The position numbers and the translations under genes were made by a program. 64,000 nucleotides of DNA from Flavobacteriales bacterium (GTDB lineage: Bacteria; Bacteroidota; Bacteroidia; M30B66). Positions 797 to 54,014 of this stretch are shown here, piece after piece. The first letter of the stretch is position 1; every line of letters starts with the position of its first letter. The stretch is taken from positions 2,517-66,516 of the forward strand of contig JBKBKN010000007.1 of assembly GCA_046294625.1 (NCBI GenBank), written 5' to 3'. The notes under the pieces were generated by a model. The model ran no database searches, had not been told where the DNA came from, and saw only the letters and a program-made list of their open reading frames with translations.

Positions 797-871
797 CGGG
801 ATGTAGCGCAGCCCGGTAGCGCACTTGCATGGGGTGCAAGGGGTCGTGGGTTCAAATCCCGCCATCCCGAC
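797..871 (+). tRNA. tRNA-Pro (anticodon GGG)
   Basis: Cloverleaf read by eye: acceptor CGGGATG/CATCCCG, U8, D-arm GCGC/GCGC, anticodon stem CTTGC/GCAAG with loop AUGGGGU (anticodon GGG), T-arm GTGGG-TTCAAAT-CCCGC. No encoded CCA. Confidence 0.8.
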
Positions 872-2208: not shown

Positions 2209-3495
2209 TCAGTCTGCCCATAGTTTAACGTAAAGCCCATCAGGGTCGTACATTTCTGACTGTTTGCGAATATTAAAGTACCGGTCTTCACGTGGATCCG
2301 TGCCGATACCAGCCACATAATTCCAGTTGCACCAATTGCTGCTTACATCATAATCCATAAGCATTGACTCAAAATACCTTGCTCCCCACTGCCAATTTAC
2401 TTTTAAATCATTAACCAGATAACTGGCCACATTCTGACGGCCGCGATTGCTCATGAAGCCTGAAAGACGCAATTCGTTCATATTGGCATTGACAAATGGC
2501 TCCTTAGTTTTACCCTCCACCCATTGCATAAACTTGGCCTTGTTATTTTCCATTCGCTTATTGATGTGGCCTTTAAGTCCAAACTTCAGAAAAATTCGAT
2601 TACTATACTTCATCGCAATCATTCTGAAATAATCCCTCCAAAGCAATTCAAAAATCAACCAGTATGTTGATTGATTGGCAACGCGCTCCTTTTCATATTT
2701 TTTTACCTGTTTGTAAATATATCGTGGCGAAATGCAGCCCTGTGCCAGCCATGGGGAGAACTTCGAAGAATAATCGGCGCCAATCAAGCCATTGCGCGTT
2801 TCTTTATATACTTTAAGCAAGTCCTGCTGCCAGATGTAATTTTCTAATCGCAGCAAAGCTTCTTGTTCGCCACCCTTAAATGCAAGTACTGCATTTGGGT
2901 GCTGCGGAACAGTAATATCCCATTCAGGAACGTAATCATCGATTATATTGTGAGTAAGCTGCGATGGCAAAACATGTGGAGTAGGAATGGCTTCGGGAAA
3001 GGCAGCAAACTTTTCTGCTTTTTTCCTAAACTCTGTAAAAATATCCGGAAGGTTTTCAATTGCAAATGGTAAAGTATGTATGTCAATTAGAAAGTTATTG
3101 TGCATGCCATGCACCTGCTTGGCTTGCTTTTGAAGCTTATCCGTAAGCGCTTGAACCGTTTCCTGCTCATCATAACCCGGCTCGAAACTGCAATGCAATT
3201 CGCTGATATTCAGATTCTGCATCATTGCGGGAATCAATTCCATTGGGTCTCCGCGTTTGATTATCAAGTCGCTCCCTTTTTCGCGAAGAGCATCTTTAAG
3301 CGCATATACTGATTCCTTAATAAACTGGCGGCGAAACGGTCCAATACGCGAAAAGCCTAATTTATCGTCAGTATACTGCAAAGGATCTACAATGTAAATA
3401 AATAAAGTCGCATCGCTGTGATCAATGGCTTTTTGTAAGGCAGGGTGGTCGTGCAAACGAAGGTCGTTGCGAAACCAAAAGATAGATGTAGGCAT
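2209..3495 (-). CDS. cryptochrome DASH / deoxyribodipyrimidine photolyase family protein
   Basis: 428 aa. The N-terminus FWFRNDLRLHDHPAL and the FAD-binding C-terminal region (WRDYF, LSGFMSNRGRQNVASYL) are typical of cry-DASH/photolyase. Confidence 0.75.
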   Translation of the reverse strand: MPTSIFWFRNDLRLHDHPALQKAIDHSDATLFIYIVDPLQYTDDKLGFSRIGPFRRQFIKESVYALKDALREKGSDLIIKRGDPMELIPAMMQNLNISELHCSFEPGYDEQETVQALTDKLQKQAKQVHGMHNNFLIDIHTLPFAIENLPDIFTEFRKKAEKFAAFPEAIPTPHVLPSQLTHNIIDDYVPEWDITVPQHPNAVLAFKGGEQEALLRLENYIWQQDLLKVYKETRNGLIGADYSSKFSPWLAQGCISPRYIYKQVKKYEKERVANQSTYWLIFELLWRDYFRMIAMKYSNRIFLKFGLKGHINKRMENNKAKFMQWVEGKTKEPFVNANMNELRLSGFMSNRGRQNVASYLVNDLKVNWQWGARYFESMLMDYDVSSNWCNWNYVAGIGTDPREDRYFNIRKQSEMYDPDGLYVKLWAD

Positions 3496-8547: not shown

Positions 8548-9986
8548 CAAGCATCAACATCAAATTCCTATCAGCTATCTTGTTCTTGCTCTGTGCCGGA
8601 AAAATTATCGGACAGCAGCAAAACAAAGTATTTGTGGAAGATGGTCGCATGTATTTGCGTGTAGATTTTGATATCAACAAAAAAAGCTTAGACTCGCTCA
8701 TCATAGAGTTTGACCTGCAACAATCAGGAATTATTCAAGCATTGAAATATGGCGACACTGACAGCCTTAAAAACTCAGGATGGACACTCTTTAGCATAAC
8801 ACCACAGTATCTTATTGTAAGCCGAAAACTGGAAGAATTGTCGAATGTGGAAGCATTCGAAAAAAAATTCTGGCTAAGCGAAAATGTATGGCCCGACAAA
8901 CCCGGCACAGTGAATGACTATTTTGTTAGATTTGGGTTCAACCGATTCAAAAATCGCACAGTATGGGATGGGAAAGGCAATGAGACTGTTTTTGTTTTGA
9001 AAGGAAATCAGCAGGCTAATCGGGTGTATCTCTCAGGAAGTTTTAACGAATGGAGCACACTGCGTAATGCAATGTCAAAGACCGATAGCGGATGGGTAGC
9101 GAAGGTGAATTTACAACCCGGCAAGCATCTGTATAAGTTTATCGTGGATGGGAAGTGGATCAATGACCCGATGAATGAACAAAAAGAGTCCGACGGATAC
9201 ATGGGTCGAAACTCTATTTTCTTTAAATGCAACCATGTATTTACCCTGCCGGGAAACCTGAATGCAAAAAGGGTATTAATAAGCGGGAGCTTCAATTATT
9301 GGAACGAAAAAGATGCCCGTCTTGATAAAATGGCTGATGGATGGTCGCTGCCCGTGTATTTGCAACAAGGAAGTTATGAGTATCGATTTATTGTCGATGG
9401 TCGTTGGATGACCGATCCCCTCAATCCCAAAACAGTGAAAAATGAATTTGGCGAAGACAATTCCTTTCTGAGTTTTGGCAAGAAAACCACTTTTTATTTA
9501 GATGGCTATCCGGATGCCAAACAGGTGTTTCTCGCTGGAGAATTCAACAATTGGCGCGCTAATATTGCCCTGCAACGACAAGGAAAAGGCTGGGCAGTGG
9601 ATTATGCAATCAAACCAGGCAATTATCATTTCAAATATCTGGTGGACGGCAATTGGATTTTTGACCCATTGGCCGATGATGTGGTGCAATATGGCACAAA
9701 CGACATTCAGTCCGTTAGATTCATTGAACCCAATTATACCTTCCGTTTAAATGACTATACTAATGCAAAAAAAGTGATCGTCACCGGCAGTTTTAATAAT
9801 TGGAACGAAAAAGCCTTTAGCATGCAACGCGATGCCCAAGGTTGGTTTCTCAACGTGTTTTTACCCCCGGGAAAGATACTCTATAAGTTTATAGTAGATG
9901 GCCAATGGATTACCGACCCTAAAGCCGTGCAAAATGAGAAAAATGAGCATGGTACCTATAATTCAGTGTTGCTGATGAAGAGATGA
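8541..9986 (+). CDS. secreted protein with four tandem CBM48/AMPK-beta glycogen-binding-like modules
   Basis: ATG at 8541 overlaps the stop of the protease gene by 7 nt (the ORF-track start at 8508 is a TTG). Four about 80-aa repeats each carry SGSFNxW...G(W)...Y(K/R)F(I/L)VDG.W..DP. Confidence 0.55.
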   Translation: MVASINIKFLSAILFLLCAGKIIGQQQNKVFVEDGRMYLRVDFDINKKSLDSLIIEFDLQQSGIIQALKYGDTDSLKNSGWTLFSITPQYLIVSRKLEELSNVEAFEKKFWLSENVWPDKPGTVNDYFVRFGFNRFKNRTVWDGKGNETVFVLKGNQQANRVYLSGSFNEWSTLRNAMSKTDSGWVAKVNLQPGKHLYKFIVDGKWINDPMNEQKESDGYMGRNSIFFKCNHVFTLPGNLNAKRVLISGSFNYWNEKDARLDKMADGWSLPVYLQQGSYEYRFIVDGRWMTDPLNPKTVKNEFGEDNSFLSFGKKTTFYLDGYPDAKQVFLAGEFNNWRANIALQRQGKGWAVDYAIKPGNYHFKYLVDGNWIFDPLADDVVQYGTNDIQSVRFIEPNYTFRLNDYTNAKKVIVTGSFNNWNEKAFSMQRDAQGWFLNVFLPPGKILYKFIVDGQWITDPKAVQNEKNEHGTYNSVLLMKR

Positions 9987-20523: not shown

Positions 20524-22080
20524 ATGCGTAAAAAAGTAGATTTTCTGGTGATTGGATCGGGCATTGCCGGTTTGAGTTTTGCACTCAAAATTGCCTCTTA
20601 TGGCAAGGTCATCATTATCACGAAAAGTGATCAGGATGAGTCCAATACCAAGTATGCTCAAGGAGGCATAGCTGCGGTGACTTATGCCCCTGACACTTTT
20701 AAGAAACATGTTCAAGACACCTTAATCGCCGGCGACGGGCTATGTGACGAAAACATTGTACACAAAGTGATCACCGAAGGTCCTGAACGTATTCAGGAGC
20801 TCATCGACTGGGGCACTCAGTTCGACACCAAAGATGATGGTAGTTTTCATCTTGGCAAAGAAGGCGGGCATTCTGAACATCGCATTCTGCATCATAAAGA
20901 TATTACAGGATATGAGATCGAAAGGGCACTCATTGCCCAGATCAAAGCCCACCCAAACATCGAAATTCTTGATCATCATTTTGCTATAGAAGTGATCACA
21001 CAGCACCACCAAGGCATGTATGTCAACAGTAAAACACCGGGCATAAAATGCTATGGAGCGTATGTTTTGGATCTTAAAACAGGCAAAACAGAAGTGATTC
21101 TCTCCCGAATAACCTTGATGGCAAGTGGTGGAATCGGTCAGGTATATGCCGCTACTACCAACCCGACTATTGCCACTGGCGATGGTATTGCTATGGTTTA
21201 TCGCGCCAAAGGAAGAGTGGAAGATATGGAGTTCATTCAGTTTCACCCAACGGCGCTCTATGAGCCCGGGAAACAGCCATCTTTTCTCATTACGGAAGCC
21301 ATGCGAGGTGCAGGCGCGGTCTTACGCAATGTTGATGGCGTGGCTTTTATGTATAAATATGATTCGCGGAAAGAACTTGCTCCCCGCGATATCGTAGCCC
21401 GTGCGATTGACCACGAATTGAAGTCCCGAGGCGATGACTATGTTTTACTGGATTGCAGACATATCAGCGAATCGGAAATTAAGCATCATTTTCCCAATAT
21501 TTATCAGAAGTGCAAAAGCATAGGCATTGAATTGCCCAAAAACATGATTCCCGTAGTACCGGCATGTCATTATTTGTGTGGTGGCATCAAAGTAGATGAG
21601 CACGGTCGAACCAGCATAGAAAATCTTCTTGCAGCAGGCGAATGCGCGCGAACAGGGCTTCATGGAGCCAACCGACTGGCATCTAACTCGCTGCTCGAAG
21701 CCCTATTTATATCACACAGGGCGTTTTTATTTGCAAAAGAAAATTTTAATAACATCCAAATCGAAGAGCAGATCCCTGAATGGAATATCGAAGGAACAGT
21801 GGACAATGAAGAAATGGTACTCATCACACAAAGCAGAAAAGAACTACAATCCATCATGAGCAATTATGTGGGAATTGTGCGAAGCAATGTGAGACTTCAG
21901 CGGGCGCATGACCGACTAATGATTTTAAACCGTGAAACTGAGGAGCTTTATCAGCGCAGCAAGCTCACTCCTGCACTTTGTGAACTACGAAATTTAATAC
22001 TCACCGGCTATCTAATCATCAAAGCGGCGCGATTGAGAAAAGAAAACAAAGGGCTACACTACTCTATCGATTTACTATAA
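20524..22080 (+). CDS. nadB: L-aspartate oxidase
   Basis: FAD-binding N-terminus (DFLVIGSGIAGLSFAL), the succinate dehydrogenase/fumarate reductase flavoprotein fold, and a NadB-typical C-terminus. 518 aa. Confidence 0.9.
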   Translation: MRKKVDFLVIGSGIAGLSFALKIASYGKVIIITKSDQDESNTKYAQGGIAAVTYAPDTFKKHVQDTLIAGDGLCDENIVHKVITEGPERIQELIDWGTQFDTKDDGSFHLGKEGGHSEHRILHHKDITGYEIERALIAQIKAHPNIEILDHHFAIEVITQHHQGMYVNSKTPGIKCYGAYVLDLKTGKTEVILSRITLMASGGIGQVYAATTNPTIATGDGIAMVYRAKGRVEDMEFIQFHPTALYEPGKQPSFLITEAMRGAGAVLRNVDGVAFMYKYDSRKELAPRDIVARAIDHELKSRGDDYVLLDCRHISESEIKHHFPNIYQKCKSIGIELPKNMIPVVPACHYLCGGIKVDEHGRTSIENLLAAGECARTGLHGANRLASNSLLEALFISHRAFLFAKENFNNIQIEEQIPEWNIEGTVDNEEMVLITQSRKELQSIMSNYVGIVRSNVRLQRAHDRLMILNRETEELYQRSKLTPALCELRNLILTGYLIIKAARLRKENKGLHYSIDLL

Positions 22081-39543: not shown

Positions 39544-39617
39544 TGGAGAATACCGGATTCGAACCGGTCACCTCTTGCCTGCCAGGCAAGCGCTCTAGCC
39601 AAATGAGCTAATTCCCC
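39544..39617 (-). tRNA. tRNA-Ala (anticodon GGC)
   Basis: The reverse complement folds as acceptor GGGGAAT/ATTCTCC with G3:U70 (the Ala identity element), D-arm GCTC/GAGC, anticodon loop CUGGCAG (GGC), T-arm ACCGG-TTCGAAT-CCGGT. Confidence 0.8.
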
Positions 39618-48125: not shown

Positions 48126-49973
48126 ATGTGTGGAATCGTAGCATATATAGGAGAAAAGCAGGCATACCCCATTCTTATCAAAGGCCTCCAACGTTTAGAA
48201 TATCGTGGTTATGATAGCGCTGGAGTTGCGCTACTCAATGAAAATACCCCAATCAGGCTCTTTAAACGAAAAGGCAAGGTGAGTGATTTGATTGAGTATA
48301 CAAAAGACAAAGACACATCAGGAAAACTCGGAGTTGGTCACACCAGATGGGCAACTCATGGTGTTCCGAATGATGTAAATGCACACCCCCATTTCAGTGA
48401 ATCAGAAGAACTTGTCATCATTCACAATGGCATCATTGAAAACTACGCATCGCTTAAGAAAGAGCTTCAGAATAGAGGTCACGTATTCAAAAGTGATACA
48501 GATACAGAAGTACTGATCTACTTAATTGAAAACATTATCAAGAATGAAAATGTTGATTTAATAAAGGCAATACAAATGGCATTAGGTCAGGTAGTAGGGG
48601 CTTATGCAATTGTCATTTTGTCGAAGCAAAATCCGGATTTACTTATTGGTGCCAAAAAGGGCAGCCCAATGGTGGTAGGCATCGGAGGCGATGATGAATA
48701 CTTTATTGCGTCTGACGCCACACCAATAATTGAATACACAAAAAATGTTGTTTACCTTGATGATGAAGAGATTGTGATCTTAGAAAGAGGCAAACCACTA
48801 AAAATCAAAACCATAAAAGACCAGGATAAAACTCCTTACATCCAGGAACTTGAGATGCACCTTGAAGCAATTGAAAAGGGAGGTTTTGATCATTTTATGC
48901 TCAAGGAGATATACGAACAACCCAGATCGGTGCGTGACAACATGCGCGGGAGACTAAATTTAGAAAAGGGTGAGCTTACCTTAGGGGGCATTATTGATTA
49001 CCATTCCAAAATGGTGAATGCCAATAGAATTATTATTGTAGCATGCGGAACATCGTGGCATGCAGGCTTGGTGGGTGAATATCTTTTCGAAGACCTTGCA
49101 AGAATCCCTGTAGAAGTTGAATATGCATCTGAATTTAGATACCGTAACCCGATCATTACAGAAAATGATATCGTAATCGGAATCAGTCAGTCGGGCGAAA
49201 CGGCCGATACGCTTGCTGCAATAGAGCTAGCCAAATCTAAAGGAGCTACTATTTTTGGCATTTGTAACGTAGTGGGATCAAGCATTCCGCGCGTGACACA
49301 TGCCGGATCTTACACTCATGCCGGCCCCGAAATAGGCGTTGCCTCCACAAAGGCGTTCACCGCTCAACTCACTGTTTTAACCTTGATGGCACTTGTGCTT
49401 GCTCACAAAAAAGGTACCATCACCGAGGTAAAATACCGTCAAATGTTATATGAACTCGATGCAATTCCGGCAAAAATTGAAGAAACCCTGAAGCTTGATG
49501 CGCAGATTAAATACATTTCTGGTATTTACAAAGATGCCAGAAACTTCTTGTACTTGGGTCGCAGCTATAACTTCCCGCTCGCACTCGAAGGCGCTTTGAA
49601 GCTTAAAGAAATCTCCTACATACATGCCGAAGGATATCCTGCTGCGGAAATGAAGCATGGGCCTATTGCATTGATAGACGAAGAAATGCCTGTGGTAGTA
49701 ATTGCACCAAACAAAGGAAGCTATGAGAAAATTGTAAGCAATGTGCAAGAAGTAAAAGCCCGTGGCGGCAAAGTGATCTCCATCGTTACCCAGGGAGATA
49801 TAGAAGTAAAAGCACTGTCGGACCATTGCATTGAAATTCCTGAAGTAGCTGAAGAATTGACACCTTTGATTTCAGTTATTCCACTGCAGCTGCTTGCTTA
49901 CCATATAGCAATATTGCGAGGTTGTAATGTGGATCAACCTCGAAACCTAGCAAAATCGGTGACTGTAGAGTAA
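48126..49973 (+). CDS. glmS: glutamine--fructose-6-phosphate aminotransferase
   Basis: N-terminal MCGIVAYIG (Ntn Cys), two SIS domains, C-terminal ...SVTVE. 615 aa. Confidence 0.95.
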   Translation: MCGIVAYIGEKQAYPILIKGLQRLEYRGYDSAGVALLNENTPIRLFKRKGKVSDLIEYTKDKDTSGKLGVGHTRWATHGVPNDVNAHPHFSESEELVIIHNGIIENYASLKKELQNRGHVFKSDTDTEVLIYLIENIIKNENVDLIKAIQMALGQVVGAYAIVILSKQNPDLLIGAKKGSPMVVGIGGDDEYFIASDATPIIEYTKNVVYLDDEEIVILERGKPLKIKTIKDQDKTPYIQELEMHLEAIEKGGFDHFMLKEIYEQPRSVRDNMRGRLNLEKGELTLGGIIDYHSKMVNANRIIIVACGTSWHAGLVGEYLFEDLARIPVEVEYASEFRYRNPIITENDIVIGISQSGETADTLAAIELAKSKGATIFGICNVVGSSIPRVTHAGSYTHAGPEIGVASTKAFTAQLTVLTLMALVLAHKKGTITEVKYRQMLYELDAIPAKIEETLKLDAQIKYISGIYKDARNFLYLGRSYNFPLALEGALKLKEISYIHAEGYPAAEMKHGPIALIDEEMPVVVIAPNKGSYEKIVSNVQEVKARGGKVISIVTQGDIEVKALSDHCIEIPEVAEELTPLISVIPLQLLAYHIAILRGCNVDQPRNLAKSVTVE

Positions 49974-49996
49974 TATTTTTTCCTGATAAACAAATT

Positions 49997-50039
49997 AATC
50001 AATAGTTCGTTTATAACCAATCAACAGTTCGTTTATATT
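49997..50039 (+). promoter_or_regulatory. tandem 21-bp direct repeats upstream of the carH-like gene (candidate operator)
   Basis: AATCAATAGTTCGTTTATAAC and AATCAACAGTTCGTTTATATT match at 19 of 21 positions with a 22-bp period, and end about 30 nt before the regulator ATG. Confidence 0.35.
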
Positions 50040-50069
50040 AGACTAACAGATTTGCGGGGAAGCCAAATT

Positions 50070-51002
50070 ATGAAAATAGGGCAGGGAAAATATTCAATCA
50101 AAGACCTGGAGAGGTTATCCGGAATTAAGGCGCATACAATCAGAATTTGGGAGCAACGCTATAACATATTAGCGCCTGAACGAACTAATACCAATATCCG
50201 TTTATACAACGATAGGGAATTAAAGCAGCTGCTCAATATTGCCTTGCTCATCAGTCAGGGATCTAAAATATCTCACATCAGCAAATTGTCTGAAGAAGAA
50301 ATCTGCAACAAGATTCACCATATCAGTCTTAATCCAGAGCATCAAGACCAATTTTTTCAGGTGCAGATCAATGAGCTTGTACTGGCCATGATTGAATTTA
50401 AAGACAGTAAATTTGATAAAGTCATTTCTACTTGTACTTTGAAATATGGATTCGAGTCAACCATGATCAACGTATTGATTCCCTTTTTGCATAAGGTGGG
50501 TGTGATGTGGCGAACAGGTGAAGCCAATATCGTGCAGGAGCATTTTATCAGCAATTTGATAAGAAGAAAAATCATTGTAGCTATAGATGGTTATGTAGGA
50601 ACAGAATCTGATGACTCTGATACCTATCTTCTTTTCCTCCCTGAGAACGAACTACATGAATTGGGATTGCTATTTGGAAAATATTTACTCAAAGTAAGAG
50701 GTAAAAATGTGATTTATCTTGGGCAGAATGTTCCCTTCGAAGATGTAGTTCATTTTTGCAAGAATTTCAATCCAATCTATTTATTAACCTTCTTCACTGC
50801 CGCATATTCTGCAGATAGCATTAAGAGTTATATCCAAAGCCTTTCCGAACAGGTTGGGAAGACCAAAATACTCATTGCAGGGCCTCAGATCTGCCAATTA
50901 GGCGAACACTACCCATCCAATGTTCAGCCTTTATTTTGTATTCAAGATCTAATTGACCTCGCAGAAGGCAAAACCAATCTGTTTAACATTTCAAAAAATT
51001 AA
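50070..51002 (+). CDS. CarH/LitR-type MerR-family transcriptional regulator with AdoB12-binding photoreceptor domain
   Basis: ATG at 50070 (the ORF-track start at 50052 is a TTG). MerR HTH (IKDLERLSGIKAHTIRIWEQRY). Wx9EH motif (WRTGEANIVQEH) and ExHxxG cobalamin-binding motif (ENELHELG). Confidence 0.7.
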   Translation: MKIGQGKYSIKDLERLSGIKAHTIRIWEQRYNILAPERTNTNIRLYNDRELKQLLNIALLISQGSKISHISKLSEEEICNKIHHISLNPEHQDQFFQVQINELVLAMIEFKDSKFDKVISTCTLKYGFESTMINVLIPFLHKVGVMWRTGEANIVQEHFISNLIRRKIIVAIDGYVGTESDDSDTYLLFLPENELHELGLLFGKYLLKVRGKNVIYLGQNVPFEDVVHFCKNFNPIYLLTFFTAAYSADSIKSYIQSLSEQVGKTKILIAGPQICQLGEHYPSNVQPLFCIQDLIDLAEGKTNLFNISKN

Positions 51003-51106
51003 TTTAACAATTATTCAAAACAGCCTTGCAAGTCTTGTCTGACAAAGGTTATGTGCAATTGAAATAGTTGTACATACAAATATTTTTTTGTTTAATGATA
51101 AATTAA

Positions 51107-51163
51107 TTTGGTTAAACAGATTTTGTTTAACTATATTTGCTCCATCGTTAAACAAATTAAACT
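51107..51163 (+). promoter_or_regulatory. candidate promoter plus operator of the ECF sigma gene: TTTG (-33-like), TATATTTG (-7 box) embedded between inverted repeat TTTGTTTAAC / GTTAAACAAA
   Basis: A 10-bp perfect inverted repeat (51122..51131 and 51147..51156) flanks a TAnnTTTG element (51133..51140). Extra GTTAAAC half-sites sit at 51111 and in TTGTTTAAT at about 51088. Confidence 0.4.
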
Positions 51164-51670
51164 ATGTCAACAATCGAATTTAATGAAAGTGTACTAAGCT
51201 ACGAGAAGCCGCTTAAGTATTTTGCGCTCAATTTGACATCCAACGATGAGGAGGCAAAGGACCTGTTGCAGGAAACGCTCTTAAAAGCAATGAGCAATAA
51301 GCATCGCTTTGTAGAGAAAACTAATTTGAAGGCCTGGCTTTATACCATCATGAAGAATATCTTCATCAATAACTATCGCAGAGCCATCAAAACAAACACC
51401 ATTCTTGACAATACTAAAGATTTGTATTTCATGAATATACCGCAACATGGTAATGGAAATGCGCCGGAGTCGAAATATTCCGAAAGAGAAATCATCAAGA
51501 AGATTGAGATTCTACAAGACGAATACAAAGTACCATTCACTATGTATTTTAATGGCTACAAGTACAAAGAAATAGCAGATTACTTGGATTTACCTATTGG
51601 CACTGTGAAAAGCCGTATTTTTCTTGCCCGCAGACAGCTGATGGCCATGTTGAAAGATTATCGCAGATAA
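51164..51670 (+). CDS. ECF-type RNA polymerase sigma-70 family factor (LitS-like position)
   Basis: 168 aa with region-2-like LLQETLLKA...KAWLYTIMKNIFINNYRR and a region-4 HTH (YKEIADYLDLPIGTVKSRI). Confidence 0.7.
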   Translation: MSTIEFNESVLSYEKPLKYFALNLTSNDEEAKDLLQETLLKAMSNKHRFVEKTNLKAWLYTIMKNIFINNYRRAIKTNTILDNTKDLYFMNIPQHGNGNAPESKYSEREIIKKIEILQDEYKVPFTMYFNGYKYKEIADYLDLPIGTVKSRIFLARRQLMAMLKDYRR

Positions 51671-51703
51671 TCAAGCAACAAACACTCAAATCCGCTACAA
51701 CTT

Positions 51704-52549
51704 ATGATACGAGGAAATAACCTTTACGACGAAACTTGCCTAAAGTGCAGTAAAATCACTACAGTGAATTACAGTACGTCTTTTTCACTGGGAATAAAAA
51801 CACTCGCCAAACAATATCATAAGCCTATTTATGCAATTTACGGTTTTGTGCGCTTTGCTGACGAAATTGTTGACACCTTCCACCATCAGGATAAAAAAAT
51901 GATGCTGGAATCATTCAAGCAACAAACACACGAATCGATTACCAATAAACATTCTCTCAATCCAATCTTGCACGCTTTTCAATTGGTTGTAAATGAATAC
52001 AATATTGAAATTGAATTGATAGACACTTTTCTGCATAGTATGGAGATGGACTTGCATGACATCAAATACGATCAGGCAGCCTATGAAACTTATATTCTTG
52101 GATCAGCCGAAGTCGTAGGACTAATGTGTCTTAGAGTGTTTTGTCAGAAGAATGATGAACAATATGAAAAATTGAAACCATACGCCATGAAGCTTGGTTC
52201 TGCTTTTCAAAAAATTAATTTTTTGAGAGACTTAAACAACGATTATTTTAATCTTGGGAGGGTTTATTTTCCGCACCTTGATATTCAAAAATTCGATTTA
52301 CAATCGAAGCAAGCAATTGAAGCAGATATCGAAAAAGATTTCGCTGCCGGACTTGAAGGAATCAAGATGCTTCCCGATGGCGCTCGTTTTGGGGTGTATG
52401 TGGCTTATGTTTACTATTATGCCCTCTTCAAAAAAATCATCAATACCCCACCAAAGGTTATTCTGAAAGAAAGGGTAAGAATACCTAATTTCAGAAAGTA
52501 TATGCTTATTTTAAGCTCATACCTTAAACACTCTTTTGGTCTGATTTAA
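51704..52549 (+). CDS. crtB: phytoene synthase
   Basis: Squalene/phytoene synthase fold: YAIYGFVRFADEIVD (first Asp-rich motif) and YILGSAEVVG...LRDL..D second motif region. 281 aa. Confidence 0.8.
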   Translation: MIRGNNLYDETCLKCSKITTVNYSTSFSLGIKTLAKQYHKPIYAIYGFVRFADEIVDTFHHQDKKMMLESFKQQTHESITNKHSLNPILHAFQLVVNEYNIEIELIDTFLHSMEMDLHDIKYDQAAYETYILGSAEVVGLMCLRVFCQKNDEQYEKLKPYAMKLGSAFQKINFLRDLNNDYFNLGRVYFPHLDIQKFDLQSKQAIEADIEKDFAAGLEGIKMLPDGARFGVYVAYVYYYALFKKIINTPPKVILKERVRIPNFRKYMLILSSYLKHSFGLI

Positions 52550-52593
52550 ACAAATCGGCATCTAAAAAGTTAAACAAAATAAACCCATTATCG

Positions 52594-53439
52594 ATGCTCA
52601 ATTTAAAAGTAACGATTGATCAAAACTCCGGATTTTGCTTCGGTGTTGTATATGCTATTGAAATGGCAGAAGAAGTGCTCCACGAGCAGGGTTATCTTTA
52701 TTGTCTTGGCGATATTGTTCACAACGATGAAGAGGTTAATCGATTAAAGTCTATGGGATTAATCATTATTGACCATGCCCAATTCAACGAATTGAAAAAC
52801 GAGAAAGTTCTTATTAGGGCACATGGTGAGCCCCCATCAACTTATCAGAAAGCAATTGAAAATAACATCACCCTAATAGACGCCACCTGTCCGGTAGTGT
52901 TGAAACTTCAAAATAGAATTAGAAACTCTTACGACAAAAAAGAAACCATCTTTCTGATGGGGAAAAAGGGTCATGCCGAAGTGACCGGCTTAATGGGTCA
53001 AATTAACAATGAAGGAGTGGTATTTACTGATATTGAAGAGTTAGAAGGATCCAATTTGCCTGCAGAAGTTACGCTTTACACGCAAACCACTAAGAGTAAG
53101 CAGAAATTTCACGAAACAAAGCGTGCGTTGGAAAGTAAGGGAATAAAGGTAAATGCTCATGATACCATTTGTAGTCAGGTATCTGACCGAGATGTAGAGC
53201 TCAGGGAATTTTCTAAAGCTTTCGACAAAATTGTTTTTGTGTCAGGTACAAAATCTTCGAACGGCAAAGTGCTTTATAACGTTTGCAAAGAGCAAAACCC
53301 GAACACCTATTTTATTAGTACCCCCGAAGAGCTAAATAAGGAATGGTTCAAAGCCAATGACTCCGTTGGTATTTGCGGTGCTACTTCCACACCAATGTGG
53401 CTGATGGAGAATGTCCAAAAGGCGATTGAAAACTTCTGA
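52594..53439 (+). CDS. ispH: 4-hydroxy-3-methylbut-2-enyl diphosphate reductase
   Basis: GFCFGV, HN and ATCP Cys-containing motifs of IspH/LytB. 281 aa. Confidence 0.9.
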   Translation: MLNLKVTIDQNSGFCFGVVYAIEMAEEVLHEQGYLYCLGDIVHNDEEVNRLKSMGLIIIDHAQFNELKNEKVLIRAHGEPPSTYQKAIENNITLIDATCPVVLKLQNRIRNSYDKKETIFLMGKKGHAEVTGLMGQINNEGVVFTDIEELEGSNLPAEVTLYTQTTKSKQKFHETKRALESKGIKVNAHDTICSQVSDRDVELREFSKAFDKIVFVSGTKSSNGKVLYNVCKEQNPNTYFISTPEELNKEWFKANDSVGICGATSTPMWLMENVQKAIENF

Positions 53440-53896
53440 ATCCTACTTCGGCTTGAAAATCAAAATTAAAACAGCCATTGATGGAAAATCTCCGGAAGCA
53501 GCACTAAGTGCATTTGATAAAAATCTTTTTTCTGCTCTAGCGCCAATCTTTCCTAAGCTTGAGATTAATAGATTCGATGGTAGTGAGCCGGGATGTACAG
53601 TTGACATTACACTCAATGCCGGACTGTTTAAACAAAGATGGGTAAGCAAAATCACAGAACGTGAAACCACACCGCAAGATGCCTGGTTTGTAGATGAAGG
53701 TGTTAAACTTCCTTTTTTTCTAAAATTCTGGCGGCATAAGCATCACATCATGCTAGATAAGGATCAGCTTTATATTATCGATGATATTTATTTCAAATCG
53801 CATACACTCCTCTTTTCACTATTGCTCTATCCCATTTTGTATTTACAGTTTAGGGCAAGAAAACCGATTTATAAGCGGTGGTTCAAAAGTCTATAA
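53411..53896 (+). CDS. hypothetical protein (possibly SRPBCC-like with C-terminal hydrophobic tail); start uncertain
   Basis: The ORF overlaps the ispH 3' end, and no internal ATG lies near the 5' end. A TTG at about 53451 is a possible start. No firm motifs. Confidence 0.25.
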   Translation: MSKRRLKTSESYFGLKIKIKTAIDGKSPEAALSAFDKNLFSALAPIFPKLEINRFDGSEPGCTVDITLNAGLFKQRWVSKITERETTPQDAWFVDEGVKLPFFLKFWRHKHHIMLDKDQLYIIDDIYFKSHTLLFSLLLYPILYLQFRARKPIYKRWFKSL

Positions 53897-54014
53897 AATC
53901 AATAATTAACAAATAAAATAGGGGGATCGCAGTAAGCTATCCCCCTATTTTGTATTGTTAACTACCCAGTAAACGATATCTATTTTAAGTCACCGTTCCA
54001 TATTGGTATCGGAT

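What the first reader, a model, noticed from the sequence alone, without database searches (positions are those of the whole stretch)
50070..53439. AdoB12 photoreceptor regulator (CarH/LitR type) - ECF sigma - crtB - ispH: a compact light-response module
The regulator carries an N-terminal MerR HTH together with both diagnostic photoreceptor signatures. These are Wx9EH (WRTGEANIVQEH) in the four-helix bundle and ExHxxG (ENELHELG) in the Rossmann B12-binding domain. Next come an ECF sigma factor, phytoene synthase and IspH, all on the same strand with short gaps. This mirrors the Streptomyces LitR-LitS-crt logic, in which a MerR/B12 regulator controls an ECF sigma that drives carotenoid genes. 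Here the only carotenoid enzyme present is CrtB, joined to an isoprenoid-precursor enzyme; no crtI or crtY is in the window. A cry-DASH/photolyase gene (2209..3495) is also in the window, so two independent light sensors are encoded. Either the sigma factor controls distal crt genes, or the locus is a minimal light-inducible precursor-supply unit.
Basis: partly seen in the sequence, partly recalled or inferred. Interest (0 to 1): 0.55.

Follow-up and report, generated by a model that had tools for sequence, protein, structure and literature searches.

The report
B12 light-switch operon, carotenoid genes trimmed
This is a vitamin-B12-dependent light-sensor regulator next to an operon for a sigma factor, phytoene synthase, IspH and a lipid-binding protein; it is a cut-down version of a carotenoid cluster common in Bacteroidota, and its likely DNA operator can now be named.

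Summary
50070-51002 encodes a CarH/LitR-type regulator (MerR HTH, Wx9EH, ExHxxG); its model matches T. thermophilus CarH. An ECF sigma, crtB and ispH follow on the same strand.

The interpretation needs three corrections.
1. The unit is longer. A fifth gene, an SRPBCC-fold protein (53453-53896), follows, and a strong terminator lies at 53921-53945.
2. It is not a special minimal design. It is a reduced form of a widespread Bacteroidota cluster (cruF-crtZ-REG-SIG-crtI-crtB-crtYcd-ispH-crtW in Algoriphagus). Only a small clade (window, L001, L002, L004, L005, L090) lacks crtI between sigma and crtB, and crtB there is still under purifying selection.
3. The layout does not mirror LitR-LitS-crt. 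Sigma, crtB and ispH are 33-44 nt apart, behind one sigmaA-type promoter.

That promoter lies inside a conserved operator, TGTTTAA-N16/17-TTAAACA. The window has two perfect units (51089-51118, 51124-51154) and a third at the regulator's stop codon. Across 80 genome loci, 75 of 94 units lie in REG-SIG spacers.

Most likely the regulator represses this operon directly in the dark and light relieves it. The sigma's own targets are unknown. Where crtI lies could not be determined. Ordinary in kind, useful in detail.

The parts
50070..51002 (+). REG: CarH/LitR-type MerR regulator with a cobalamin-binding domain (310 aa; an alternative TTG start is at 50052)
   Evidence: Pfam MerR_1 and B12-binding_2. 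RIWEQRY, GVMW, Wx9EH, ELHELG and GQNVP are present. Key residues are invariant in the family. Best PDB sequence hit is TtCarH, 3e-18. The fold matches TtCarH at 1.6e-15, with CBD TM 0.76-0.80.
50980..51009 (.). Upstream operator unit TGTTTAA-N16-TTTAACA (1 mismatch), overlapping the REG stop codon
   Evidence: Units lie in a comparable position, within about 50 nt after the end of the REG match, in L011, L015, L036, L049, L050, L059, L072, L074 and L079.
51050..51088 (+). Terminator-like hairpin (51050-51076) plus T-run (51082-51088) ending the REG transcript
   Evidence: RNA fold. Clear hairpin plus T-run terminators sit at the same place in L001, L012, L015 and L040 (read from the sequences).
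51089..51118 (.). Distal operator unit TGTTTAA-N16-TTAAACA (perfect); it contains the -33 TTTG at 51107-51110
51124..51154 (.). Proximal operator unit TGTTTAA-N17-TTAAACA (perfect); it contains the -7 box TATATTTG at 51132-51139. Predicted TSS is about 51144
   Evidence: The -7 box sits at -12 to -5 according to PMC9723704. A proximal unit with at most 1 mismatch is present in 39 of 51 REG-SIG loci.
51164..51670 (+). SIG: ECF-type sigma factor (168 aa, sigma2 and sigma4 only); no anti-sigma gene is adjacent
   Evidence: Pfam Sigma70_r2 9.6e-14 and r4_2 4.5e-13. Only the general TIGR02937 model passes its cut-off. It is 82-85% identical within the reduced clade.
51704..52549 (+). crtB: phytoene synthase-type SQS_PSY enzyme
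   Evidence: Pfam 1e-45. It is 57% identical to the crtB of the Algoriphagus carotenoid cluster. DEIVD and DLNND motifs are present and the gene is under purifying selection in the clade.
52594..53439 (+). ispH: HMBPP reductase, last step of the MEP pathway
   Evidence: NF002187 362.8 bits against a cut-off of 276; Pfam LYTB 2e-86. It is linked to crt genes in most REG-SIG-crt loci.
53453..53896 (+). SRPBCC/START-fold ligand-binding protein (147 aa from TTG 53453; the longest ORF starts at ATG 53411)
   Evidence: No Pfam or PDB sequence hit. Sources name its homologs SRPBCC, and P0121 is 99% identical. The AF2 model has pLDDT 96.4 and Foldseek matches Bet v 1, PR-10, ZhuI and PYL at probability 1.0. 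Orthologs sit at the same place in L001, L004, L005 and L090.
53921..53952 (.). Intrinsic terminator: GGGGGAT...ATCCCCC stem (-19.7 kcal/mol with flanks), then TATTTTG; it lies between convergent genes

Best explanation
This is a light-controlled operon of the CarH type. It is a trimmed version of the standard Bacteroidota carotenoid cluster.

Proposed mechanism:
1. REG is transcribed on its own and ends at its own terminator.
2. In the dark, AdoCbl-bound REG oligomers occupy tandem inverted-repeat units (TGTTTAA-N16/17-TTAAACA). These units cover the -33 and -7 elements and the start site of the single sigmaA-type promoter upstream of the sigma gene, and so block RNA polymerase.
3. Light photolyses the cofactor and REG leaves the DNA.
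4. One transcript is then made for the ECF sigma, phytoene synthase, IspH and an SRPBCC lipid-binding protein, ending at the terminator at 53921-53945.
5. CrtB and IspH thus rise together with light, giving the committed carotenoid step plus more C5 precursor.
6. The sigma has no anti-sigma partner and is controlled by its abundance. It then switches on further, unlinked promoters, most plausibly including the missing crtI and cyclase genes.

Shown here: the gene identities, the regulator's fold and motifs, the operator's existence, conservation and position over the promoter, the operon boundaries, the ancestry from the full cluster, and selection on crtB.

Inferred: AdoCbl binding, the light response, repression rather than activation, co-transcription, and any role of the sigma.
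For: Regulator:
- CarH motifs and fold, judged against the criteria in PMC9304148 and PMC11796333.

Operator:
- Three units in the window, all in the REG-SIG spacer, against 0.2 expected in 64 kb.
- Across 80 genome loci there are 94 units; block shuffles give 0-5. Of these, 75 lie in 13.6 kb of REG-SIG spacer, where shuffles average 0.085.
- A proximal unit with at most 1 mismatch is present in 39 of 51 loci and ends 2-38 nt before the sigma ATG (the one exception, L042, overlaps it). TAnnTTTG lies inside its spacer in 28 of 51.
- The half-site TTAAACA contains the CarH repeat core TnnACA (PMC9304148).
- Units also occur next to REG in loci that lack the sigma (L025, L041, L044, L056). The motif therefore tracks REG, not SIG.

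Promoter and operon:
- Only one TAnnTTTG with a -33 TTTG lies on the + strand in 49900-54000, and it is inside the operator.
- Gaps are 33 and 44 nt, and the SRPBCC gene starts 13 nt after ispH. Terminators sit after REG and after the SRPBCC gene.

Light theme:
- In other lineages REG-SIG is followed by crtI-crtB-crtY-ispH-crtW, or by folE-photolyase-DPRP.
- L071 has an extra unit directly before folE.

crtB function:
- Catalytic motifs are kept. L004 and L005 are 95% identical in protein while synonymous sites are saturated.
Against: - Nothing here is experimental. I found no paper that tests a Bacteroidota REG-SIG pair.
- The operator is made of inverted repeats, whereas characterised CarH operators are tandem 11-bp direct repeats (PMC9304148).
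- Streptomyces LitR is proposed to activate litS in the light as well as repress it in the dark (PMC11519972), so pure repression is an assumption.
- The GxxH signature reads NELH in this protein. SxT reads TFFT and GG reads AG.
- ispH is normally essential, yet it has no recognisable promoter of its own. That fits badly with tight dark repression.
- No sigma-dependent promoter motif could be defined.
- crtI was not located.
Confidence: 0.65

Rival explanations
1. A true LitR-LitS cascade. REG controls only the sigma gene. The sigma then transcribes crtB, ispH and the SRPBCC gene from an ECF-type promoter hidden in the 3' end of the sigma gene or in the 33-nt gap.
For: REG next to an ECF sigma next to crt genes is the Streptomyces arrangement, and sigma-LitS drives crtEp there (PMC11519972). 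The sigma is the most conserved protein of the operon within the clade, at 82-85%. It is almost always the first gene after the operator.
Against: The gaps are 33 nt here and mostly under 35 nt (about 1-100) before crtI in relatives, which usually leaves little room for an intergenic promoter. No conserved ECF-like motif was found; the candidate seen upstream of cruF occurs at chance level elsewhere. There is no terminator between sigma and crtB.
Confidence: 0.15
2. REG acts as a MerR-style activator in the light, remodelling the promoter, rather than as a simple dark repressor.
For: It has a MerR-family DNA-binding domain. One half-site (51124-51130) lies between the -33 and -7 elements, as activator sites do in MerR promoters (established knowledge of the family). 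Streptomyces LitR is proposed to activate litS after illumination (PMC11519972).
Against: The other half-sites cover the -33 flank and +5 to +11, which suits occlusion. The three biochemically studied CarH proteins are all dark repressors (PMC9304148). The -33/-7 spacing of 21 nt is within my recollection of the normal range for the phylum and is not overlong.
Confidence: 0.12
3. REG senses B12 supply, or needs a partner photoreceptor, and is not itself a light sensor (CarA-like or class II LitR-like).
For: B12-independent and LOV-partnered LitR classes exist (PMC9304148, PMC9758184). The Pfam B12-binding score is below threshold, and GxxH, SxT and GG are imperfect.
Against: Wx9EH is intact, and that motif separates CarH from CarA (PMC9304148). 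GxxW, EH and GxxxP are present, and the His ligand is invariant. A complete Rossmann module superposes on CarH cobalamin-binding domains. No LOV or BLUF gene is adjacent.
Confidence: 0.08

Closest known systems
CarH of Thermus thermophilus, Bacillus megaterium and Myxococcus (AdoCbl photoreceptor repressors)
   Same: MerR-type DNA-binding domain, Wx9EH four-helix bundle and His-on Rossmann B12 domain. It is the best PDB match by both sequence and fold. The operator overlaps a primary-sigma promoter in front of carotenoid genes. The half-site carries the TnnACA core.
   Different: Operator half-sites are arranged as inverted pairs 23-24 bp apart in two or three units, not as three or four tandem 11-bp direct repeats. 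The recognition helix reads RIWEQRY rather than RxWERRY. There is no His after the Trp (WR, against WH in TtCarH as seen in the alignment). The first gene controlled is a sigma factor.
Streptomyces LitR-LitS light switch (PMC11519972)
   Same: A B12-type MerR regulator sits next to an ECF sigma gene, with the regulator acting at the sigma promoter. Carotenoid genes are nearby.
   Different: In Streptomyces litR and litS have bidirectional promoters (PMC11519972), and the crt genes have their own sigma-LitS promoter (GCATCCR-N15-CVGAAD). Here REG and SIG are in tandem, and crtB and ispH are fused to the sigma transcript with no separate promoter detected. The phylum and promoter grammar also differ (-33/-7).
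Algoriphagus-type carotenoid cluster (Tao et al. 2006, pmid 16625353; layout verified here in L027 and about 30 other loci)
   Same: Orthologous REG, SIG, crtB and ispH in the same order and on the same strand, with the same operator before the sigma. ispH is embedded among crt genes.
   Different: The window clade lacks cruF and crtZ upstream, crtI between sigma and crtB, the crtYcd cyclase and crtW. It has gained an SRPBCC gene after ispH. The distal and proximal units are 35-36 bp apart rather than 44 bp.

Membership tests
CarH/LitR class I (AdoCbl-dependent photoreceptor regulators) | N-terminal MerR-type HTH with the RxWERRY recognition helix (PMC9304148) | tested here: met
   Pfam MerR_1 1.4e-15. 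The motif reads RIWEQRY (R25-Y31), with one R-to-Q change; R25, W27, E28, Q29, R30 and Y31 are invariant in the family, so Q is the family's own residue.
CarH/LitR class I (AdoCbl-dependent photoreceptor regulators) | Intact Wx9EH in the four-helix bundle, which separates CarH from the B12-independent CarA | tested here: met
   W147-x9-E157-H158, invariant in 26 relatives. Pfam B12-binding_2 scores 35.8 bits against a cut-off of 23.
CarH/LitR class I (AdoCbl-dependent photoreceptor regulators) | Classic B12 motif D/ExHx2G/P-x41-SxT/V-x22-27-GG | tested here: inconclusive
   E194-L-H196-E-L-G199 is present, and E194 and H196 are invariant. The next element reads T240-F-F-T243 (T243 invariant, Ser position not kept). 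The last reads A270-G271 (G271 invariant). Pfam B12-binding scores 17.1 bits, below the cut-off of 32.1.
CarH/LitR class I (AdoCbl-dependent photoreceptor regulators) | Light-response signature GxxW, EH, GxxH, GxxxP (PMC11796333) | tested here: inconclusive
   GVMW, EH and GQNVP are present. GxxH reads NELH in this protein and its nearest relatives, while the family consensus has G.
CarH/LitR class I (AdoCbl-dependent photoreceptor regulators) | CarH fold: HTH, four-helix bundle and five-stranded Rossmann module | tested here: met
   AF2 pLDDT 87.4, pTM 0.83. The top 12 Foldseek PDB hits are all TtCarH (E 1.6e-15 to 5e-12). Cobalamin-binding domains align at TM 0.76-0.80 and rmsd about 3.5 A over about 210 columns.
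CarH/LitR class I (AdoCbl-dependent photoreceptor regulators) | Operator of TnnACA repeats overlapping the promoter of the regulated genes | tested here: met
   The half-site TTAAACA contains TAAACA. The units cover -33, -7 and +5 to +11. The arrangement is inverted, not tandem direct; PMC9304148 reports that operator design is plastic.
CarH/LitR class I (AdoCbl-dependent photoreceptor regulators) | AdoCbl binding, and light-dependent loss of oligomer and of DNA binding | not testable with these tools
   Needs purified protein, spectroscopy, size-exclusion chromatography and EMSA.
LitR-LitS type cascade (Streptomyces) | The regulator's site lies at the promoter of an adjacent ECF sigma gene | tested here: met
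   The operator units end 9 nt before the sigma ATG here, and 2-38 nt before it in relatives.
LitR-LitS type cascade (Streptomyces) | Carotenoid genes are transcribed from a separate sigma-dependent promoter | tested here: not met
   The gap before crtB is 33 nt, and mostly under 35 nt before crtI in relatives. No second promoter or conserved ECF-type motif was found. This is sequence evidence only.
ECF (group 4) sigma factors | Sigma2 and sigma4 regions only, about 170-200 aa | tested here: met
   168 aa. Sigma70_r2 and Sigma70_r4_2 match, and TIGR02937 scores 72 bits against a cut-off of 42.9. No curated subgroup model reaches its cut-off.
ECF (group 4) sigma factors | Co-encoded anti-sigma factor (typical, not universal) | tested here: not met
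   The next gene is crtB here and crtI, folE or another gene in relatives. No gene matching a known anti-sigma family was recognised among the downstream genes examined.
Phytoene synthase CrtB | SQS_PSY fold with two Asp-rich motifs, and orthology to a crtB inside a carotenoid cluster | tested here: met
   Pfam 1e-45. DEIVD and DLNND are present. It is 57% identical and syntenic with the Algoriphagus cluster crtB. NCBIfam equivalog cut-offs are not reached (82 bits against 550), and enzyme activity was not tested.
IspH (LytB) | Curated equivalog model above its cut-off | tested here: met
   NF002187 362.8 bits against 276; TIGR00216 237 bits against 188.
SRPBCC / START / Bet v 1 superfamily | Helix-grip fold with a ligand pocket | tested here: met
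   pLDDT 96.4. The predicted order is strand, two short helices, six strands, then C-terminal helices. Foldseek gives probability 1.0 to PR-10, Bet v 1, ZhuI and PYL2, with TM 0.5-0.64. The ligand is unknown.

The most novel reading that the evidence does not exclude
The reduced clade really has no phytoene desaturase. Light would then switch on only phytoene synthesis, together with extra IspH and an SRPBCC carrier. The product would be colourless, UV-absorbing phytoene (or another C30/C40 head-to-head product) held by a dedicated lipid-binding protein. That would be a new kind of minimal photoprotective unit, while the ECF sigma runs a separate light regulon.
Probability: 0.1. Interest if true: 0.65.

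Novelty: new variant of a known kind. Interest (0 to 1): 0.4.

Why it matters
CarH-type B12 photoreceptors have been studied biochemically in only a few bacteria, and I found no tested case in Bacteroidota.

This analysis gives a concrete, phylum-wide prediction that can be tested with one EMSA and one dark/light RNA experiment. It names a defined operator (TGTTTAA-N16-TTAAACA in tandem units) wrapped around a -33/-7 promoter.

It would add an inverted-repeat design to the known range of CarH operators. It also offers a native green-light switch for Bacteroidota, where genetic tools are scarce.

Two real questions are raised:
- What does an ECF sigma do when it is co-transcribed with the genes it was thought to control?
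- How does a cell tolerate its essential ispH sitting in a light-gated operon?

The window's own version, without crtI and with an added SRPBCC gene, is a local rearrangement of modest interest unless crtI proves to be absent from the genome.

Tried and rejected
1. Locating crtI in the source genome. tblastn of Algoriphagus crtI, crtY, crtZ, crtW and cruF against the window and against the +/-7-10 kb loci of the clade found nothing. The weak hit at 20527 lies in an NadB/SdhA-type flavoprotein ORF. Searching 5.8 billion proteins with an outgroup crtI, and looking for hits on contigs already tied to clade members (lengths 4,200,666, 146,155 or 78,351 bp), failed: the 120 listed hits were all at least 70% identical to the query, and the named ones were Brumimicrobium, Lishizhenia or unclassified Bacteroidota MAGs. 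That is uninformative, not negative.

2. Extending the window. The exact sigma protein is on record only on a 4.8 kb Logan contig. The 99%-identical NCBI protein MFN4122537.1 (146 kb contig) is not indexed for context.

3. Defining the sigma's promoter. GCCAACAA-N15-AAGTTAG upstream of cruF in Algoriphagus-type loci looked ECF-like. It occurs at chance level in the window (2 hits against 2.25 expected) and inconsistently elsewhere.

4. Operator upstream of cry-DASH or elsewhere in the window. No unit with at most 1 mismatch was found.

5. Autoregulation of REG by the same operator in the window. No unit with at most 2 mismatches lies upstream of REG. Some relatives do have one upstream of REG or crtZ.

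6. ORF161 by sequence. No Pfam or PDB sequence hit even at E 10. It was solved by structure instead.

7. Rfam. Only two tRNAs were found, and no riboswitch.

8. The sigma-70 consensus scan was set aside, because Bacteroidota use -33/-7 promoters.

Full report
**Observation**

The ORFs are where the finding says, all on the + strand:
- regulator (REG), 50070-51002
- ECF sigma (SIG), 51164-51670
- crtB, 51704-52549
- ispH, 52594-53439

The gaps between them are 161, 33 and 44 nt.

Profile searches support each call:
- REG: MerR_1 1.4e-15 and B12-binding_2 9.4e-9.
- SIG: Sigma70_r2 and r4_2.
- crtB: SQS_PSY 1e-45.
- ispH: NF002187 362.8 bits against a cut-off of 276.

W147, E157, H158, E194 and H196 are invariant across 26 family members that are 46-94% identical to the window protein.

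The one weak point was the Pfam Rossmann B12-binding model, at 17.1 bits against a cut-off of 32.1. I checked it by structure:
- The AlphaFold model (pLDDT 87.4) has a five-stranded alpha/beta module.
- Its 12 best PDB matches are all full-length Thermus thermophilus CarH (E 1.6e-15 and weaker).
- Isolated CarH and CtMerR cobalamin-binding domains align at TM 0.76-0.80 over about 210 columns.
- By sequence, the best solved relative is also TtCarH, at 3e-18.

The cry-DASH gene is real (TIGR02765 518 bits) but lies on the minus strand.

No crtI, crtY, crtZ, crtW or cruF is in the window. The only faint hit lies in an ORF whose top Pfam domain is FAD_binding_2 with a fumarate-reductase C-terminal domain, which I read as an NadB/SdhA-type flavoprotein.

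**The unit is longer than reported**

A fifth gene follows ispH. The longest ORF is 53411-53896. Homologs, including one that is 99% identical (MFN4122537.1, MAG: Flavobacteriales bacterium), start at the TTG at 53453, 13 nt after the ispH stop.

It has no Pfam or PDB sequence match. Its model (pLDDT 96.4) has the helix-grip SRPBCC/START/Bet v 1 fold, at Foldseek probability 1.0.

A strong hairpin plus T-run at 53921-53952 closes the unit. REG has its own terminator-like hairpin and T-run at 51050-51088.

The layout is therefore REG | SIG-crtB-ispH-SRPBCC.

**Where it comes from**

REG belongs to a large Bacteroidota family. A scan of one genome per species gave at least 591 relatives, and I kept 80 loci.
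- In 50 of the 80, an ECF sigma follows REG on the same strand (one search lists these 50 plus the window).
- In about 35 of those, the order continues as SIG, crtI, crtB, usually then a cyclase and ispH.

In Algoriphagus mannitolivorans (L027) the full order is cruF, crtZ, REG, SIG, crtI, crtB, crtYcd, ispH, crtW. This corresponds to the carotenoid cluster published for Algoriphagus by Tao et al. 2006 (pmid 16625353). I saw only that paper's title, through reference lists. My memory is that it already notes ispH among the crt genes.

Among 80 metagenomic relatives of the window's crtB, most (about 70) have crtI directly upstream of crtB.

Only six loci share the reduced order REG-SIG-crtB-ispH-SRPBCC: the window, L001, L002, L004, L005 and L090. 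L002 ends inside ispH. Within this group SIG is 82-85% identical to the window protein and ispH 80-82%, against at most 59% and 71% outside it.

So one small lineage lost crtI, the cyclase, crtZ, crtW and cruF from the locus and gained the SRPBCC gene.

crtB is not decaying there. DEIVD and DLxxD are kept and there are no stop codons. L004 and L005 are 95% identical in protein while their synonymous sites are saturated.

**The operator**

The spacer between REG and SIG holds an inverted repeat, TGTTTAA-N16/17-TTAAACA. The window has two perfect units, at 51089-51118 and 51124-51154. A third unit with one mismatch lies at 50980-51009, across the REG stop codon.

There is no other unit with at most one mismatch in the 64 kb, where shuffles give 0.2.

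Across the 80 genome loci (1.05 Mb):
- There are 94 such units, against 0-5 in block shuffles.
- 75 of them lie in the 13.6 kb of REG-SIG spacers, where shuffles average 0.085.
- A promoter-proximal unit with at most one mismatch is present in 39 of 51 REG-SIG loci, and with at most two mismatches in 48 of 51. It ends 2-38 nt before the sigma ATG; the one exception, L042, overlaps it.
- A second unit usually lies 44 bp upstream, or 35-36 bp in the window's clade.
- In nine other loci a further unit lies close to the REG stop, in a position comparable to the window's third unit.

The unit also occurs beside REG in loci with no sigma (L025, L041, L044, L056) and before crtZ-REG in Pontibacter. 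It therefore follows REG, not SIG.

The half-site TTAAACA contains TnnACA, the core of the repeats bound by characterised CarH proteins (PMC9304148). Here the cores are arranged as inverted pairs rather than as tandem 11-bp direct repeats.

**Promoter**

Flavobacterial sigmaA promoters carry TAnnTTTG at -12 to -5 (PMC9723704). The -33 TTTG element is from my own knowledge of the phylum.

In 49900-54000 only one + strand TAnnTTTG has a TTTG 17-23 nt upstream. It is TATATTTG at 51132-51139, with TTTG at 51107-51110.
- Both elements lie inside the spacers of the operator units.
- The predicted start is near 51144.
- The four half-sites then fall at about -55, -32, -20 and +5.
- The -7 box lies inside the proximal spacer in 28 of 51 loci.

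This is the geometry of a repressor that blocks polymerase.

No comparable promoter precedes crtB or ispH.

**Mechanism**

I therefore read the locus as follows. AdoCbl-REG binds the tandem units in the dark and shuts the single promoter. Light releases it, and one mRNA for SIG, CrtB, IspH and the SRPBCC protein is made.

Several steps are inferred from family behaviour (PMC9304148, PMC11519972), not shown here: cofactor binding, the light response, the direction of control and co-transcription.

The sigma has no neighbouring anti-sigma gene in any locus examined. It is probably governed by its own abundance and probably acts on unlinked promoters.

REG-SIG is a general light module rather than a crt-specific one. 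In other lineages the pair is followed by different genes:
- L019: folE, a short-chain dehydrogenase, a photolyase, a distant SRPBCC relative and a DPRP protein.
- L071: folE and a photolyase, with an extra operator unit directly before folE.
- L054: folE. L014: a NUDIX protein, a PTPS enzyme and a folE-cluster protein.

The Streptomyces scheme has the crt genes behind their own sigma-LitS promoter (PMC11519972). That feature is not met here by sequence evidence, so the locus works like CarH at its own operon.

A LitS-like second tier is possible but unproven. I tried to define a sigma-type promoter from regions upstream of cruF and did not succeed.

**Open points**

1. Where crtI is, or whether it exists, in this lineage could not be settled.
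2. ispH is normally essential, yet it has no visible promoter of its own.
3. The GxxH signature of PMC11796333 reads NELH in this protein.
4. A 19-nt direct repeat upstream of REG is unexplained.

**Verdict**

The kind of system is known: a CarH/LitR regulator with an ECF partner and carotenoid genes. The window's version is a lineage-specific reduction of a widespread Bacteroidota cluster.

The conserved inverted-repeat operator and the sigma-first operon make it a variant worth a bench test, not a new class. I found no experimental paper on it in the searchable library, though subscription journals are not covered.

Noticed in passing
window 49997-50015 and 50019-50037: A 19-nt direct repeat, AATCAA[T/C]AGTTCGTTTATA, occurs twice, 22 nt apart, just upstream of the regulator gene. 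It is not the operator motif, and no counterpart is seen upstream of REG in L001-L005.
   Followed up: partly
window 2209-3495 (minus strand): A cry-DASH gene (TIGR02765 518 bits) lies 47 kb from the module. No operator unit precedes it, so there is no sign of direct control by the B12 regulator.
   Followed up: partly
window 52594-53439, with 51700-52593 upstream: ispH is normally an essential MEP-pathway gene, yet it has no canonical -33/-7 promoter of its own and sits inside the putative light-gated operon. The same embedding recurs across Cytophagales loci. How it is expressed in the dark is unexplained.
   Followed up: partly
window 52546-52554 and 52570-52578: TTAAACAAA occurs twice in the crtB-ispH gap. 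It resembles the right half of the operator but has no left partner.
   Followed up: no
L019 8591-13390; L071 8588-10613; L014 7047-8670; L054 8989-9516: In other Bacteroidota the same REG-SIG pair is followed by folE, photolyase/cryptochrome, DPRP, PTPS and NUDIX genes instead of crt genes. L071 has an extra perfect operator unit (8588-8617) directly before folE.
   Followed up: partly
L027 5761-5787 and the equivalent sites in L012, L015, L037, L059: GCCAACAA-N15-AAGTTAGGAATCCC is conserved upstream of cruF in Algoriphagus-type loci. It could be an ECF-type promoter, but it did not generalise.
   Followed up: partly
window clade: L001, L002, L004, L005, L090: Within the reduced clade the sigma is far better conserved (82-85% identical to the window) than the regulator (54-61%) or crtB (64-66%). 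crtB is hardly closer within the clade than to outgroups (up to 64%).
   Followed up: partly
window 50646-50657 (REG residues 193-196): The GxxH light-response signature reads NELH in this regulator and its nearest relatives, whereas the family consensus keeps Gly.
   Followed up: no
window 797-870 (+) and 39544-39617 (-): Two tRNA genes are the only Rfam matches in the window. No cobalamin riboswitch is present.
   Followed up: no
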